Source: Enterobacteria phage VT2phi_272. Taken from it: DNA of 64,000 nucleotides. The stretch lies in sequence record NC_028656.1; one strand, 5' to 3'. Shown one piece after another: positions 48,001 to 54,000 of the stretch. Numbering within the stretch: position 1 is the first letter of the stretch; the number at the start of each line of letters is the position of its first letter. Made by a program: the position numbers.

Positions 48001-51000
48001 TGAGATTGACAGTACTTTAATGACTGTTGATTTTCCCACAAAACCGCTGAATTTTAAGGCGACAGGAGGATTTGGCTCGGTTCTTCTTGAATGGGATATG
48101 CCTAATTATCGCGGACATTCACTGACTGAAATCTGGCGGGGTACGGAGGATGACCTTGCTGATGCAGTGCTGGTTGCCACGACGCCGGGGCAGGTTTACG
48201 GCGATCCGGTTGACCCTGGCTGGTCGGGATTTTACTGGATACGTTTTGTTAACGCGGCAGGAGTGAAAGGTCCATGGAATGCTGAAAAAGGCACTCAGGC
48301 ACAAACACAGATCGGCGTGAAGGCCATCATTGACCAGATCCGCGATGAGGCTGCAAAGTCGCCGGTTGTGTCCGAGCTGCGTAAAGAAATAAAAAACGCG
48401 CAGGGGCAGGCTGTAAAGGATGCTGCAATTAAGACAACCGAAGTTGTGGGGACTCTCAGGGAAGAAACGACAAGAACGATTGGTGGTATTGAAACCCGCA
48501 TTAGCACACTGGATTCGTCAACCAGTGAATCGCTTAATGAGGTCGACAAGCGCATCACTAAACTGGATAAAGAAGGCGGTGAGGCGTTTCTGGCAATGTG
48601 GTCAAAAAAAGCGGGAGTTGATGGTATCACTGCGGGGATCGGGATTGTCGCCGGAAAAGACAGTGAAGGCAGGCCTGTAAGTCAGGTTGCAATTTCTGCG
48701 TCGCAGTTGTTTGTCTTTGACCCGAACAACCCGGATAACACCGCCTATCCGTTTGCGGTATCAGGTGGCAAGGTTGTGATCCCGAAAGCGATGATTTATG
48801 ACGCGGTGATTGAAACACTGGTGTCGCGGAAGGTTGTGGCGGATGAGGTAAAAGCCGGGGTAAGTATCACTTCGCCAGTTATCCGGAGTGCCGTTATTCA
48901 GAACGGAAACTTTCAGGTTGATTCTCAGGGTAACCTGAATATTGGAGGCCTTTTCAGTGTTACGTCACAAGGGCAACTGACAATTCGTTACTCTAATCAG
49001 AATGTAGGACTGGTGATCCGCAATGATAAAATTGAGGTTTATGATCAGAATGGACGACTGGCTGTTCGCATAGGCAGATTACGCTGATCAGGAGGTGAGT
49101 ATTGGAATACGGTTTTGCCATTTATAACAGAAATAACGTTAATGTTACGGGCGTGTTGACTCCGGTATTTTTCCTGGACAGATTTACAGCGGAGTCTGGC
49201 TCAAAGACGTACACGAATAAACCCGACGGGAAATCATTGCAGGCTGTATGTTGTTTATTTCCCTGGAATAATGTATTTGCGGATCGGAAAGTACCGAAGA
49301 TAACCATTAATGGCAATACGGTGACGTGGTCGAATCTTGAGCAGGGTATGGGATCTTATATTTATACATTCTGGGGATAAGTGTCATGTATGGTTTGAGC
49401 ATTATGAAGCCGGATGGCAGCGTATGGATAAGTCCAGGTTTTACGCCGCAGTGTCTGATCAACAAAGGCACCATACCGGCGACTGAAAAGTCTTTTTTTA
49501 AAACATCAATCCCGTCAGGCAAAAGTTGTTTTTTCTTTATCAGAACAGAGAAGAAGGCCGATGTCATGTACACGCATGAACAGATTGATGGATATCATGC
49601 ACTAAGGCTTCATGTAATTGTCAGGGGAACGAACCCTGGTGTTACGACGGTTTATGCTTTCGCGAATATGGTTACTCCACCTTCTGAGTATGGTATCGCC
49701 ATGTATAACCCGGACGGTGAGATGATTTATCATGGCGAAATGATGCTGCTTGACGCGAAGTTAATACCTGTTGATATCAAATTTGAAAAGGACCTTGGAT
49801 ATCCATGCGCAATCATGCCTGCACTGGTCGGGTATTATAACTGGAAAAGAACTCCTTATGATCGACCGATTTATACCACATCCACTGGTGCTACAGGAAA
49901 TAAAATATATTCCTGTGAGCATTATTCCGGCGGTGCAACATGGGATATTCGAAAGCCGTATATAGATAAGGTCTTGGTTATTAATACATCAGTATATGAT
50001 TAGTTGAAGCGAGTCTTTAATATTCATTTAAAATGTCTAAAAAGATGTATTATTAAAAAGTTTAGCGTGTTATCTGAATACAGGATATCTTAAATGAAGA
50101 GTATAGCAACACTGGTTGTGTGTGCAATCTCCGGGATTGCCTGTGTAAATTTATCTGCACATGCAGCAGAAGGAAACCATACAATTTCTCTGGGGTATGC
50201 GCACTTTCAGTTTCCGGGACTGAAGGATTTTGTAAAGGATGCGACTGCTCATAACAGGGAGACTTTCAGTCATTTCGTCAACAGAAACTACTTTTCTTCA
50301 TTGGGCGAATATACAGATGGTCGGGTCAGTGGATATGAAGGCAAGGATAAAAATCCACAGGGCATTAATATCAGGTATCGCTACGAGATAACGGATGATT
50401 TTGGCGTTATCACCTCTTTTACATGGACGCGTTCTCTCACTAACTCACAGACATTTATTGATGTGCAGTCAGCCGATCATACCAGGAAGATTAAGAATCC
50501 GGCAGCTTCTGCCAGAACGGATATCAGGGCGAATTACTGGAGTCTGTTAGCGGGGCCTTCATGGCGGGTTAATCAGTACATGAGTTTATATGCGATGGCA
50601 GGGATGGGCGTTGCTAAAGTTAGCGCTGACCTGAAAATTAAGGACAATATTAACAGTAGTGGCGGATTTTCTGAAAGCAACAGCACGAAAAAAACCTCCC
50701 TTGCGTGGGCTGCAGGTGCACAGTTTAACCTGAATGAGAGTGTTACACTGGATGTGGCTTACGAAGGTTTCGGCTCTGGCGACTGGCGCACGAGTGGCGT
50801 TACTGCTGGCATTGGCCTGAAATTCTGACCTGTATCCGGTAACCGTTTACTACCCGCTGTGATGGCGGGTTTTTTATTGCCCGTACAGGGCAAAAACCGT
50901 AAATTATGCGTGGGTGCCTTTCGGCTGATGGCTGGAGGGTGAACCTGAAGGCCTGATGTGGAAAGGCCCCGAGTCAACTTAACGTTAACCCGAGGCCCTA

Positions 51001-54000
51001 ACACTTCGTACCTTAAGCAAGTAGAAGGTTAGCGCCTCTCTGTAAAAGGAGTCAAGCGCTATGTCGCAAAAATCGCTTATCACCGTCACAATTTGCATGA
51101 CGGTTATCTTCACCATCTGGATGTTGCACGGTTCACTGTGTGAGTTCCGGCTGAATTTGTGGGGAGCGGAGTTTGCGGCGTTCTTACAGTGTAAGCAGTA
51201 GGAAAACCGCGACGGGGACGAGAGTCCCCGTCAACTGGTTGCTGAGGTTCAGCCGATATGGCACCCGTTTCAGGTGAGAGAATGAACGATAAAATTCTCT
51301 GGTATATGCAGCGTGTTGTGAGAAATTCCCGCAACCCTGAATTTATGAATGAAGTTAAAGACGCCTGCCTTAAAAAGCAGGCGTTTTGTTTTGAGGCACC
51401 TGATGGCTTTTTGGTGCTGCGTTCTGTGCTCAGTGCTGATGGTATCCCTTATGTTCTGGTGTTGCTGGGCGTGTGTACGGGGAGTAACAGCGTTGAGCGT
51501 TACCTGCCGGAGGTGAAGACATTAACCCATCTGGCTGGCGGACGCTGGGCTGAGTTCCATACGGCAAGGCGGGGATTTATCCGGCTGGGAAAACGACTGG
51601 GCTTTGAGCGAATGCCGGATGATGAGGATGGCTTCATGGTGTTCAGGATAGCGGTCTGACTGCTACAGTTTTCATCATTGTGTTTAAACCAACATTGTAA
51701 TTCACATTCTGACCCTGCTCCGGCAGGGTTTTTTGTTATCCAGGGGGCCATTATGGGTGGAAGTAAAGGCGGTGGTGATACCAAAGTAAAACCAACAGCA
51801 GCGCAAATAGCACAGGAAGAAGTGGCCTGGAAAGGGTGGCAGGATTACAAAAATATCCTCCGCCCGGCTGAAGATAACTTCATGGAAAAGGTCGATGACC
51901 TGAACAGTGAGCAGCAGTACGACAATATTGCTGGCACCACAAATCTGGGGTATCAGAAACAGTTTGGCGAAGCACGGAAGGAGCTTGCGGGTAATCTTGC
52001 TCAGTCCGGCGTTGACCCATCCAGTGGTCGTTTTAATGCGGTAATGAATGCGAACCAGAGTGACCAGGTAACCGGGCAGATTGACACAACCACACGGGGG
52101 CAGGTATCGCAGGCAGATAAGTATGTTGCCGGGCTACAGGATGTTGCTGCTCTCGGTTCTGGTCAGAAGGCGGATGCGTTACAGAGTTTTAACTCTCTGG
52201 CAGACAGCAGTCTGGCAAAAGCTAAATCGGATGCACAGGCGGCGTTTACGAAACAGCAGGGGCGAGCCTCTCTTGTTGGCGCTGGTCTGGGTGCGGCAGG
52301 TGCATATGCGATGCATAAGGCTGGCGGTAGCGGAGGAAGTGGCGGTGCTAAAACACCTGGCACCGGCGCTAATGCCATTCAGCATCAGGCTCAGAACTGG
52401 AGACTGTAATTATGGAGTATGGCAAATACGAAACTCTCGCAAGGGCTGGTTATTCAGGAGCAGACCGCCCACAGGGTGACTGGCAGACGTCAGCAGCGCT
52501 GACACGCCAACAATACGACGACTGGCGAACCAGATATTTGCCCCGCGTGGCAAGGCTGGCTGACCTTGGGGAGAACAACAGTCTGATGAATGCACAGCTT
52601 GCACGGGTGGGAGGCCTTGCCACTTCCAGTCTCCGTACAGCGCAGATGGCGCAGGATAACCAGATGGCGAGATACGGGGTAAACCGCCCGGATAATCCCG
52701 ACAGTAATACGCTGGGGTTACGTAATGCCCTGGCAATTGCTGGCGCGAAAAATGGTATCCGTGAAGCCGAACAGGATCGCCAGATGAATATTCTGACGGG
52801 GGCTTCTGCACCGGCAAGACAGAAACTGAGTGTTGGCGGCCAACTGGTGGCAGCGTAAGGGGGCAATATGGGATACGGTTTACTGGATATTGCAAATCAG
52901 TCGCGGCGTGAGGCATTACAGGGAATAAGTGACGCAGACAGACGACGTGAAGAAATTGAGGCTGCGAACAAACAGATGGCGGCGCAACAGAAAGCGCAGA
53001 ACAAGCAGAATATCGGTACGGGCATTGGTACGGGGGCGGCTATTGGCGCATCCGTTGGTGGTCCTGTTGGTGCTGTTGCTGGAGCAGTAATTGGCGGCAT
53101 TGCTGGTTCTTTGTTTTAAGGAGTGGTGAATGAGCGGATTTGCACAGGGGTTACTTGCCGGATTCAGCACCGTTGACCAGGCAATGACCCGTCGTAAGGA
53201 GCTTGGTCTGCGTGAAGCACAGCTTGCCCGGCAACAGAAAAATAACGAGCGCGATTTTGAGTTTGCGCAGTCTCAGTTTGAACATAATAAAAACGTTGAT
53301 CAGCGGAACTTTGATTACAGAGCCAAAGTTGACGACCGTAATTATGCACTGAAGGAGAGGGAGTTTAACGCTAACCAGAATTACCGGAATGCGTCACTGG
53401 GTATGGAGCAGCAGCGACTCCAGTTGCAGAAATACAACCAGCGACGGCTTGAGTATAACGATATGATTGCCCATAGCCAGCCACTAATGGAAGCGCTTGG
53501 AAAAGCAATTGAGGCTGGCGATCAGGAGGCTGCAACGCGTCTGTTCGGGCAGCTGCCAAAGGGACATCCATTAATTCTTATGTCAAACGAAGGCTATGCA
53601 GCGAAAGCGGGTCAGGCCGTGATCAACCTGCAAAAAATCTTTGGTGATAAGCCGGACATGGCGATCGATTCGCTGAATACCCCGGAAAATCTCGATGTGC
53701 TTTCCGGCGTGTTTGCCCCGGAACTACAACAGCGTATTGGCATGCCTGATTCAACCGGGGACAAAACGATAAAAGAGGCCAGGATTGGCAGTATCGTACC
53801 AGCGCAGCAGGAAGGGTACGTACTTATTGGCCTTGATCTCACATACAGCGATGGCTCCACCGCGCATAAACCTGTAACAGAATACGGCAGTGCGCACCCT
53901 GATGATCAAACCGTGCTGGCGATACCCGTTGATAAGGCTATCGCTCAGGTCAGGGATCGCAGCAAATTTGCAGAGATATCGAAAAATTATGGTTATTTTA

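What the first reader, a model, noticed from the sequence alone, without database searches (positions are those of the whole stretch)
50880..51240. Hok/Gef-like type I toxin locus between lom and the downstream virion genes
An unannotated 46-codon ORF (51061..51201) with a strong RBS encodes a transmembrane peptide with SLCEFR and EFAAF motifs like Hok/Gef toxins. It is followed by a perfect 9-bp-stem hairpin (51211..51232) and preceded by a ~180-bp structured leader where a sok-like antisense RNA and mok-like frame would be expected. The locus could stabilise the prophage or contribute to abortive infection.
Basis: partly seen in the sequence, partly recalled or inferred. Interest (0 to 1): 0.6.

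Follow-up and report, generated by a model that had tools for sequence, protein, structure and literature searches.

The report
Known Hok toxin/antisense-RNA locus in Stx phage
The 46-codon ORF is a genuine Hok/Gef-family membrane toxin gene with the RNA elements of a hok/sok toxin-antitoxin module; it is already annotated in RefSeq and this exact peptide has already been tested for toxicity, so it is real but ordinary.

Summary
ORF 51061..51201 (+), its AAGGAG ribosome-binding site and the perfect 9-bp hairpin at 51211..51232 are all there. The peptide passes Pfam HOK_GEF (33.2 bits, cut-off 22).

The leader matches Rfam sok over the full model, but below threshold (35.6 bits against 59). The conserved module runs about 50877..51266. 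Its 5' end (tac, 50912-25) pairs with its 3' end (fbi, 51250-66), and relatives show compensatory changes in that helix. A Sok-like antisense RNA (about 51018 to 50953, minus strand) is predicted. Its -10 hexamer, TAACCT, is the one I read at the matching place upstream of the annotated sokW RNA. Its hairpin is more stable on the antisense strand in 32 of 32 relatives.

The expected mok frame is absent. Stop codons close all three frames upstream of hok.

The window is an argW-type Stx2a prophage, and the locus is 100% identical in 933W and Sp5. It is not hokW-sokW, which is a separate locus absent from this window. RefSeq already calls the ORF a Hok/Gef family protein. A 2025-26 preprint cloned this exact peptide (72_1589) for its toxicity assay and does not list it among the three non-toxic constructs.

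Small new points: no mok, a hypervariable antisense-recognition patch, and no terminator of its own. Verdict: already known, low interest.

The parts
50877..50905 (+). Predicted hok promoter: -35 TTGCCC (50877-82), 17-nt spacer, -10 TAAATT (50900-05), 6 nt before the G at 50912
   Evidence: Read. TTGCCC is kept in most E. coli prophage relatives. The -10 is TAAATT, TAGATT or TAGAAT at the same distance from GGGTGCC across relatives. It scores 8 of 12 and so fails the 9-of-12 consensus scan. Inferred, not shown.
50912..51266 (+). Predicted full-length hok mRNA core. Homology with relatives begins just upstream, at the promoter, and ends exactly at GGCACCC (51260-66)
   Evidence: The Rfam sok model alignment starts at 50912. 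Alignments of 51 and 32 unique relatives lose similarity beyond these borders. MFE is -153.7 kcal/mol; for 50912..51262 z = -6.1.
50912..50925 (+). tac-like 5' element, GGGUGCCUUUCGGC
   Evidence: It pairs with 51252-51266 in the full-length MFE. After 3' truncation it switches to 50958-50970. RNAalifold shows compensatory changes at 4 pairs: UA/CG in 7 sequences, CG/GC in 8, GC/AU in 7, GC/CG in 3.
50958..50970 (+). ucb-like alternative partner of tac, GGAAAGGCCCC
   Evidence: It pairs with tac in the 3'-truncated and nascent folds. This corresponds to the outer helix of the Rfam sok consensus.
50953..51018 (-). Predicted Sok-like antisense RNA of about 65 nt: a single-stranded 5' tail, a 16-bp hairpin and a UUU tract
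   Evidence: The fold is -34.3 kcal/mol, z = -5.2. The hairpin is more stable on the antisense strand than on the sense strand in 32 of 32 variants, by 9.7 kcal/mol on average, because of G.U pairs. Position and length parallel the annotated sokW RNA. The transcript itself has not been shown.
51026..51055 (-). Predicted sok promoter: -35 TTGACT (51055-50), 18-nt spacer, -10 TAACCT (51031-26)
   Evidence: Read. In the hokW locus of 933W I read the same hexamer, TAACCT, about 7 nt upstream of the 5' end of the annotated sokW RNA (sequence and coordinates). Takada et al. mutated the -10 element of the sokW promoter and lost antitoxin activity, but the text I read does not give that hexamer's sequence (PMC8621323). 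AGGTTA is nearly invariant in the relatives; three Salmonella loci have AGGATA, which gives TATCCT on the antisense strand. The site fails the generic consensus scan.
50997..51019 (.). Hypervariable patch: the predicted 5' recognition tail of the antisense RNA and its target in the hok leader
   Evidence: Nucleotide diversity is 0.29 here, against 0.028 in the CDS and 0.008 in the 3' UTR, among 24 loci with near-identical CDS. There are 22 variants of 50990-51075 among 51 sequences. In the truncated fold it forms a hairpin, 51000-11 paired with 51021-30, with a 9-nt loop.
51046..51051 (+). hok Shine-Dalgarno sequence, AAGGAG
   Evidence: In the full-length fold GGAG pairs with CUCU at 51038-41, inside a conserved UAGCGC/GCGCUA stem.
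51061..51201 (+). hok toxin gene, 46 aa, with one predicted transmembrane helix
   Evidence: Pfam PF01848 33.2 bits, above the cut-off of 22. phrog_251 E = 3e-24. 37% identity to HokW. pN/pS is about 0.30, and 9 alleles encode the identical peptide with 10 synonymous segregating sites. The exact peptide is listed as construct 72_1589 for the preprint's toxicity assay and is not among the three named as non-toxic.
51165..51181 (+). dcb-like box inside the hok CDS that pairs with the start codon region 51061-51077
   Evidence: The MFE of the full-length RNA shows it. The consensus helix is A2 columns 187-200 with 290-303. It is invariant, so there is no covariation for or against it.
51211..51232 (+). 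Perfect 9-bp hairpin after the stop codon. It is probably the protective 3' stem of the processed mRNA. It reads as terminator-like only on the minus strand
   Evidence: Relatives show compensatory double changes at 3 pairs, in 14, 14 and 5 sequences. In plasmid R1 hok, substitutions that weaken the last 3' stem-loop of the truncated mRNA abolish toxicity, which the authors attribute to greater exonuclease susceptibility (PMC9841398).
51250..51266 (+). fbi-like 3' element, CAGCCGAUAUGGCACCC
   Evidence: It pairs with tac. It is the last conserved block of the module.

Best explanation
This is a hok/sok-family type I toxin-antitoxin module carried as a small accessory insert ('moron') between lom and the next late gene of a short-tailed Stx2a prophage.

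Proposed mechanism:
- A weak constitutive promoter makes a hok mRNA of about 355 nt. Pairing of its 5' tac element with its 3' fbi element locks it shut. The start region and the antisense target are then buried (inferred from folds and covariation).
- Slow 3' trimming back to the stable hairpin at 51211-32 removes fbi. tac then flips onto the ucb-like box at 50958-70. A target hairpin forms at 51000-30 and the ribosome-binding region loosens (inferred from folds; this follows the plasmid R1 paradigm).
- A short, presumably unstable Sok-like RNA is transcribed from the opposite strand (about 51018 to 50953). It pairs with this region and is expected to trigger RNase III cleavage and decay (inferred by homology).
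- When the antisense supply stops, the stored mRNA is translated. Such stops could follow prophage loss, transcription shut-off by an infecting phage, or prophage induction. The 46-aa Hok peptide then inserts into the inner membrane and kills or lyses the cell. Toxicity of this peptide rests on a preprint's assay.

Unlike R1 hok and hokW, there is no mok leader frame. Hok must therefore be translated directly from its own AAGGAG, and the antisense RNA acts 30-60 nt upstream of it.
For: Toxin identity:
- Pfam HOK_GEF is above the cut-off, phrog_251 matches, NCBIfam HokA gives a weak match, and BLASTP to HokW gives E = 1e-8.
- The exact peptide, 72_1589, is listed among the constructs cloned for the toxicity assay. 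The main text reports 42 of 45 homologs toxic and names the three that were not; none is 72_1589.
- The peptide is under purifying selection.

RNA elements:
- Rfam sok aligns over model positions 1-157 at E = 7e-6. Relatives score 45-55 bits and hokW 113.5 bits.
- The tac-fbi helix appears in the single-sequence and the consensus folds, with 4 covarying pairs.
- The antisense hairpin is favoured on the minus strand in 32 of 32 variants.
- TAACCT sits at the same relative position upstream of the annotated sokW RNA in 933W.
- Module borders coincide with the promoter/tac at one end and fbi at the other.
- The truncated RNA refolds as the paradigm predicts (paradigm summarised in PMC9841398).

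Distribution: 196 phage records have a match, and 1750 of 5426 complete E. coli genomes do.
Against: - No transcript data were examined: neither the 5'/3' ends of the mRNA nor the antisense RNA is shown.
- Both promoters fail a generic sigma-70 consensus scan.
- The Rfam score is below the gathering threshold.
[quoted passage not shown] The coupling step of the paradigm cannot apply, and how an antisense RNA bound upstream blocks translation is unexplained.
- In this phage lineage no terminator follows fbi. The next terminator-like site on the plus strand is at 51366-83, inside the following gene, so the 3' end of the transcript is uncertain.
- A search of the supplements of a Sakai ribosome-profiling study did not find the peptide. 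That is uninformative, because one supplementary file was truncated when stored and hok is expected to be silent in growing cells.
Confidence: 0.85

Rival explanations
1. The toxin is real, but the locus works mainly as a late-expressed lysis helper rather than as an antisense-controlled addiction module. Q-antiterminated late transcription would read through the lom terminator and through hok, which lies on the same strand. That transcription would also collide with the sok promoter. Hok would then be made during induction and speed lysis, as reported for hokW.
For: hok is co-oriented with lom and the tail genes and has lost its own terminator in this lineage. It has a strong SD of its own and no mok. 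hokW-sokW in Sp5 advances growth arrest by about 40 min and doubles phage release after mitomycin C (PMC8621323).
Against: The complete set of sok and tac/fbi elements is conserved, with covariation and strand-specific selection on the antisense hairpin. That would be unnecessary for a purely late-operon gene. In Salmonella and other E. coli prophages the same module sits at the extreme prophage end with its own terminator. The two readings are not mutually exclusive.
Confidence: 0.1
2. The locus is a decaying, non-functional hok relic, like several inactivated chromosomal hok loci of E. coli K-12 (the K-12 point rests on my own knowledge).
For: There is no mok frame, no terminator of its own, a sub-threshold Rfam score and weak promoters. 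Some relatives are clearly damaged: the L026 group has its promoter and tac replaced, and L051 carries a nonsense codon at position 46.
Against: The ORF is intact in 196 phage records. pN/pS is about 0.30, and 10 of 10 segregating sites are synonymous among alleles of the same peptide. Compensatory changes maintain the RNA helices. The peptide is not among the three constructs reported non-toxic in E. coli.
Confidence: 0.04
3. The ORF encodes a small membrane protein unrelated to toxin-antitoxin biology, for example a superinfection-exclusion or lom-associated factor, and the RNA structures are incidental.
For: It neighbours lom and another outer-membrane moron.
Against: There are profile matches to the Hok family in three libraries. 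The leader is homologous to the hok mRNA leader. The tac-fbi helix covaries.
Confidence: 0.01

Closest known systems
hok/sok of plasmid R1 (Hok 52 aa, mok, Sok RNA); Rfam RF01794, Pfam PF01848
   Same: The toxin is a small single-helix peptide with the C..T and LCE motifs and a conserved acidic residue. The R1 sequence was confirmed in Table S2 of the preprint. The locus has tac/fbi end-pairing, a ucb-like alternative partner, a stable stem after the stop codon, and a cis-antisense RNA of about 65 nt whose promoter overlaps the hok translation initiation region (R1 mechanism as summarised in PMC9841398).
   Different: There is no mok reading frame. The peptide is shorter (46 aa) and ends ...FLQCKQ rather than ...YESGK. 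The leader scores only 35.6 bits on the Rfam model. No terminator follows fbi in this phage lineage. The element is on a prophage, not a plasmid.
hokW-mokW-sokW of Stx2 phages 933W and Sp5 (Takada et al. 2021, PMC8621323)
   Same: The phage type is the same. In 933W and Sp5 both loci are present, about 13 kb apart. I read the same hexamer, TAACCT, upstream of the annotated sokW RNA. The predicted antisense RNA has a similar length and position. [quoted passage not shown]
   Different: It is a different locus and a different Hok cluster: HokW belongs with HokD in cluster 35, this peptide in cluster 72. Identity is only 37%. hokW has an in-frame mokW starting at -57 and scores 113.5 bits on Rfam sok. 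It lies on the opposite strand near the right prophage end. It is absent from this window. Function has been tested for hokW and not for this locus.
Hok cluster 72 of Escalera-Maurer et al. (bioRxiv 10.1101/2025.08.07.668861)
   Same: The peptide sequence is identical to their entry 72_1589. A relative, 72_1621, corresponds to the other E. coli and Salmonella prophage alleles found here. They report that hok is enriched in prophages.
   Different: That study deliberately analysed only the coding sequence. Mok, Sok and the mRNA structure were not examined. The RNA anatomy given here is therefore not in that catalogue.

Membership tests
Hok/Gef toxin family (Pfam PF01848) | Profile match at or above the Pfam gathering score | tested here: met
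   33.2 bits against a cut-off of 22, E = 4e-8, covering profile positions 6-42 of 42. Also phrog_251, E = 2.8e-24.
Hok/Gef toxin family (Pfam PF01848) | Family-conserved residues (Cys and Thr in the hydrophobic helix, the L-C-E motif, and a later Glu), as listed in the preprint's sequence logo | tested here: met
   C12 and T14, L26-C27-E28 and E37 are read directly from the peptide. They are conserved in the 27-sequence alignment A1.
Hok/Gef toxin family (Pfam PF01848) | Toxicity when expressed in E. coli | not testable with these tools
   Literature only. Construct LRP157 (pAZ3 carrying 72_1589) encodes the identical peptide. The authors report 42 of 45 homologs toxic and name the three non-toxic ones as 19_179, 60_1482 and 69_1540. 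I did not see a toxicity value for 72_1589 itself.
NCBIfam HokA equivalog / Hok subfamily | Score at or above the curated cut-off | tested here: not met
   HokA 38.4 bits against 89; Hok family 22.7 bits against 73. The peptide is a family member but not an equivalog of any named Hok.
[quoted passage not shown] | Covariance-model match at or above the gathering score | tested here: not met
   35.6 bits against 59, E = 7.4e-6, full model 1-157, on the hok strand. Cluster relatives score 44.8-55 bits, all below threshold, while hokW scores 113.5 bits. The leader is homologous but divergent.
[quoted passage not shown] | tac/fbi pairing between the mRNA 5' and 3' ends | tested here: met
   Present in the MFE structures. 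Present in the RNAalifold consensus, with both-sides changes at 4 pairs.
[quoted passage not shown] | Cis-encoded antisense Sok RNA with its own promoter and terminator hairpin | tested here: inconclusive
   For: a conserved TAACCT (or TATCCT) -10, the same hexamer upstream of the annotated sokW RNA, and a hairpin favoured on the antisense strand in 32 of 32 variants. Against: the promoter fails the consensus scan, the U-tract is only 3 nt, and no transcript evidence was available.
[quoted passage not shown] | mok leader frame that starts upstream of hok and is translationally coupled to it | tested here: not met
   In the window the hok frame is closed 15 nt upstream of the ATG, and there is no ATG, GTG or TTG in any frame. 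The same holds for frame 0 in all 50 relatives; frame 2 starts are sporadic. The positive control, hokW, shows mokW at -57.
[quoted passage not shown] | Intrinsic terminator just after fbi, and 3' processing to an active truncated mRNA | tested here: not met
   No terminator-like site lies on the plus strand between 51201 and 51366. Other lineages of the same cluster have a canonical terminator about 25 nt after fbi. Processing itself cannot be tested here.

The most novel reading that the evidence does not exclude
Cluster-72 hok modules would be a mok-independent variant of hok/sok. The toxin would be translated directly. The antisense RNA would act from 30-60 nt upstream of the ribosome-binding site, by RNase III-triggered decay or by blocking ribosome standby or refolding. 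A recognition patch of about 20 nt would diversify rapidly, so that the several copies living in one genome do not cross-neutralise. In short-tailed Stx phages the module would also have lost its terminator and become transcriptionally fused to the downstream late gene.
Probability: 0.3. Interest if true: 0.35.

Novelty: already known. Interest (0 to 1): 0.15.

Why it matters
The practical value is limited. The result confirms that short-tailed Stx2 phages carry a Hok toxin module in the late region. The 933W/Sp5 type carries two hok loci, and only hokW has been studied. Any phenotype assigned to hokW deletion, such as lysis timing or phage yield, should be re-examined with this second locus in mind. 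The mok-less architecture and the hypervariable antisense patch give a natural series of near-identical modules for asking how Sok specificity is set and how hok is translated without mok. Neither point changes the current picture of type I toxin-antitoxin systems.

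Tried and rejected
- I first assumed the locus was the published hokW-sokW. This was rejected. The hokW primer and CDS sequences are absent from the window. tblastn finds only one Hok-like ORF in the 64 kb. In 933W hokW lies 13.3 kb away on the other strand.
- I expected the 3' part of hokW at 63861-64000 from the 933W offset. This was wrong: the window is an argW-integrated Stx2a phage with a different right end.
- The generic promoter scan found nothing in 50780-51420, so the promoter calls rest on homology and conservation only.
- I looked for a mok frame in all three frames, with hokW as a positive control. 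None was found.
- I looked for expression or naming in the literature. WP_000078907 appears in no paper. The peptide is absent from the held supplements of the Sakai ribosome-profiling study, one of which was truncated when stored. The Sp5 gene-deletion study does not mention hok or lom, and I could not map its ORF numbers reliably onto this locus.
- The best full-length phage match, LC645445, carries no gene annotation.
- The scan of species-representative genomes gave only 7 loci, three of them from implausible hosts. Diversity had to come from IMG/VR and from exact-protein look-ups.
- Structure prediction and the large protein-representative search were not used. A 46-aa single helix with a clear family match would gain nothing from them.

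Full report
**Observation.** The reported features are all present at the stated coordinates. ORF 51061..51201 (+) encodes MSQKSLITVTICMTVIFTIWMLHGSLCEFRLNLWGAEFAAFLQCKQ. AAGGAG lies at 51046-51051, 9 nt upstream of the ATG. The hairpin GACGGGGAC/GAGA/GTCCCCGTC lies at 51211-51232. The region between the lom terminator (50852-50870 plus a T-run) and the ORF is strongly structured. The predicted transcript 50912-51262 folds at -142.8 kcal/mol, z = -6.1 against dinucleotide shuffles.

**Identity of the peptide.**
- Pfam HOK_GEF (PF01848) matches at E = 4e-8 and 33.2 bits, above the gathering score of 22.
- PHROGs places the peptide in phrog_251, 'MokW-like host killing' (E = 3e-24).
- NCBIfam gives only sub-threshold matches to HokA and the Hok family. 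The peptide is a family member but not an equivalog of any named Hok.
- It is 37% identical to HokW over 35 residues.
- It carries the family's conserved Cys and Thr in the helix, the LCE motif and the later Glu.
- A search of 5.8 billion proteins found 56 relatives. Almost all are 46 aa long, from E. coli, Shigella and Salmonella, and every one that carries a source name is labelled 'Hok/Gef family protein'.
- Across 28 distinct alleles pN/pS is about 0.30. Nine alleles encode the identical peptide while differing at 10 synonymous sites. The peptide is therefore under purifying selection.

**What the window is, and what is already known.**
- The 461-nt locus is 100% identical in phage 933W, VT2-Sakai (Sp5) and many Stx1/Stx2 phages. 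It matches 196 phage records, and 1750 of 5426 complete E. coli genomes hold a match, with up to 9 places per genome.
- The right end of the window matches argW-integrated Stx2a phages, not 933W.
- RefSeq annotates the ORF as 'Hok/Gef family protein' WP_000078907.1, and a 2025 phage record calls it 'MokW-like host killing'. Under the 461-nt query, the 1999 933W record lists only L0129, a hypothetical protein; I did not check whether that feature covers the ORF.
- This is not the experimentally characterised hokW-sokW of Sp5 (Takada et al. 2021, PMC8621323). HokW is a 51-aa peptide beginning MKQQKAM, with an in-frame mokW. It lies 13.3 kb away on the other strand in 933W. It is absent from this window.
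- The exact peptide appears in the Hok catalogue of Escalera-Maurer et al. (bioRxiv 10.1101/2025.08.07.668861) as entry 72_1589, in a 'high-abundance' cluster. It was cloned as construct LRP157 for an arabinose-induced toxicity assay.
- That paper reports 42 of 45 homologs toxic and names the three exceptions. None is 72_1589. I infer that it was toxic, but I did not see its individual value.
- The same paper shows that hok is enriched in prophages, and that 3.5% of hok-carrying phages hold two copies. It states that Mok, Sok and the mRNA structure were not analysed.

**RNA anatomy: the hok mRNA.**
- Rfam's sok model is built on the hok-leader strand. It aligns over its whole length (1-157) at 50912-51074 with E = 7e-6, but only 35.6 bits against a gathering score of 59. 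Relatives of the same cluster score 44.8-55 bits, and the hokW leader scores 113.5 bits. The leader is therefore homologous but divergent.
- I collected about 90 related loci from IMG/VR, GTDB genomes and exact-protein look-ups. Similarity between lineages begins at a promoter-like TTGCCC-17-TAAATT (50877-50905) and GGGTGCC (50912). It ends exactly at GGCACCC (51260-66).
- Those two ends are complementary. In the MFE of 50912-51266 (-153.7 kcal/mol), 50912-25 pairs with 51252-66.
- In a 32-sequence alignment RNAalifold recovers this helix with compensatory double changes at four pairs. That is the tac/fbi lock of hok mRNAs.
- The hairpin after the stop codon also shows compensatory changes, in 14, 14 and 5 sequences.
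- A conserved UAGCGC/GCGCUA stem encloses the SD. The start codon region pairs with 51165-81 inside the CDS. Those pairs never vary, so they are neither supported nor contradicted.
- When the 3' end is trimmed to 51236, the predicted fold changes as the R1 paradigm predicts. tac switches to 50958-70. A hairpin forms at 51000-11/51021-30 with a 9-nt loop. The unpaired probability rises from 0.32 to 0.47 for the SD and from 0.24 to 0.56 for the AUG (paradigm as summarised in PMC9841398).

**RNA anatomy: the antisense RNA.**
- On the minus strand, TTGACT (51055-50), an 18-nt spacer and TAACCT (51031-26) precede a predicted 65-70-nt RNA. That RNA has a single-stranded 5' tail, a 16-bp hairpin and a UUU tract (-34.3 kcal/mol, z = -5.2).
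- In the hokW locus of 933W I read the same hexamer, TAACCT, about 7 nt upstream of the 5' end of the annotated sokW RNA. Takada et al. lost antitoxin activity when they mutated the -10 element of the sokW promoter, but the text I read does not give its sequence.
- The hexamer is nearly invariant across relatives. Three Salmonella loci have TATCCT instead.
- In all 32 variants the hairpin is more stable on the antisense strand than on the sense strand, by 9.7 kcal/mol on average. G.U pairs on one strand become A.C mismatches on the other. This is direct sequence evidence that the minus-strand RNA is the selected product.
- Neither promoter passes the generic consensus scan, and I had no transcript data. 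The antisense RNA is well supported but not shown.

**Departures from the paradigm.**
1. There is no mok.
   - In the window, stop codons close all three frames upstream of hok, and no ATG, GTG or TTG is available.
   - The same holds in frame 0 for all 50 relatives. Starts in frame 2 are sporadic.
   - The same script finds mokW at -57 in the hokW locus.
[quoted passage not shown] Here Hok must be translated from its own AAGGAG. How an antisense RNA bound 30-60 nt upstream prevents this is open; I infer duplex-triggered RNase III decay.
2. A patch at 50997-51019 is hypervariable.
   - It is the predicted 5' recognition tail of the antisense RNA and its target.
   - Its diversity is 0.29, against 0.028 in the CDS and 0.008 in the 3' UTR, among 24 loci with near-identical CDS.
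   - In three pairs of co-resident copies the patch is 55-68% identical while the rest of the module is 83-96% identical. Predicted cross-duplexes are 18-34 kcal/mol weaker than cognate ones.
   - This fits selection for non-cross-reacting antitoxins. It also fits relaxed constraint, because a cis-antisense pair compensates automatically. Three pairs cannot decide between the two.
3. The lineage has no terminator of its own.
   - In other lineages a canonical terminator follows fbi by about 25 nt. In the 933W-type lineage the sequence after fbi runs straight into the next gene.
   - That gene probably starts at 51282 rather than at the annotated 51258. The phrog_610 profile of 124 positions matches residues 1-125 of the shorter form. 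The ATG at 51258 lies inside the conserved fbi block.

**Function.** Nothing is known experimentally for this locus. By mechanism it should kill or lyse cells when antisense transcription stops. That is compatible with prophage addiction, abortive infection, or the lysis-assisting role shown for hokW. It lies on the same strand as the late operon and lacks a terminator, which makes a contribution during induction plausible. I rate that a 0.1 rival, and it does not exclude the main reading.

**Verdict.** The gene is already annotated and catalogued, and it has already been put through a toxicity assay. The missing mok, the hypervariable patch and the lost terminator are modest additions. Novelty: already known. 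Interest: 0.15.

Noticed in passing
window 50997-51019: A hypervariable patch of about 20 nt sits inside an otherwise near-identical module. Diversity is 0.29, against 0.028 in the CDS. It coincides with the predicted 5' tail of the antisense RNA. Co-resident copies differ most here (L091a/b and L092a/b, which are tandem in Salmonella, and L027/L051 from one genome).
   Followed up: partly
window 51030-51060 and about 50 related loci: No mok-like reading frame exists in this Hok cluster. All three frames are closed upstream of hok, although the GAGG that serves as the mok SD in R1 is retained inside the conserved CCGAGGCC stem.
   Followed up: yes
window 51258-51284: The downstream gene is annotated as 133 aa starting at 51258. 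It more likely starts at 51282, giving 125 aa with the SD GGTGAGAG. The phrog_610 profile (124 positions) matches residues 1-125 of the shorter form, and the ATG at 51258 lies within the conserved fbi block of the hok module.
   Followed up: partly
window 51361-51391: A strong terminator-like hairpin that reads as such on both strands (ACGCCTGCTTTTTAAGGCAGGCGT with T-runs) lies inside the coding region of the phrog_610 gene. It is conserved across the 933W-type phages examined. It could be the real 3' end of read-through hok transcripts, or an internal attenuator.
   Followed up: no
window 51210-51233, minus strand: The hairpin after the hok stop codon is followed by a T-rich tract only on the minus strand (CGGTTTTCCT). 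It could therefore also stop leftward transcription from entering hok.
   Followed up: no
whole window; 933W 58460-58734 (L090): 933W and Sp5 carry two hok loci: this one and hokW-mokW-sokW. The argW-type Stx2a prophage in this window carries only this one. Published hokW deletion phenotypes were obtained with this second locus still present.
   Followed up: yes
L091, L092 (3001-3141 and 3491-3635); L094-L099: In Salmonella the same Hok cluster sits at the extreme end of P2-like prophages (after gpD/Ogr) and of lambdoid prophages (after tail-fibre genes), directly next to host genes. It is sometimes present as two tandem copies about 490 nt apart. It is often close to other toxin-antitoxin genes (HicAB, YafO).
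   Followed up: partly
L026 group (IMG/VR), L051, L061: Some relatives look damaged. In the L026 group the promoter and tac are replaced by unrelated sequence. L051 has a nonsense codon at position 46. In L061 tac (GGACACC) no longer matches its fbi, and the sok region is divergent.
   Followed up: no
L003, L004, L006 (GTDB representatives): Hok loci that are 76-100% identical at the protein level appear in assemblies labelled Xanthomonas pisi, a Planococcaceae MAG and Vagococcus sp. This is most likely enterobacterial contamination of those assemblies.
   Followed up: no
window 3474-3656 and 15429-15616; 25228-25476; 26885-27144; 31807-31923: Rfam gathering-level hits elsewhere in the window: two copies each of the C4 antisense RNA and isrK, three tRNAs, STnc100 and AsxR (the Stx2 region), and an ALIL pseudoknot. 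From my own knowledge, the ALIL pseudoknot is the frameshift signal of IS3-family insertion sequences, so it suggests an IS insertion. The duplicated C4/isrK pair suggests two related regulatory regions within the 64 kb.
   Followed up: no
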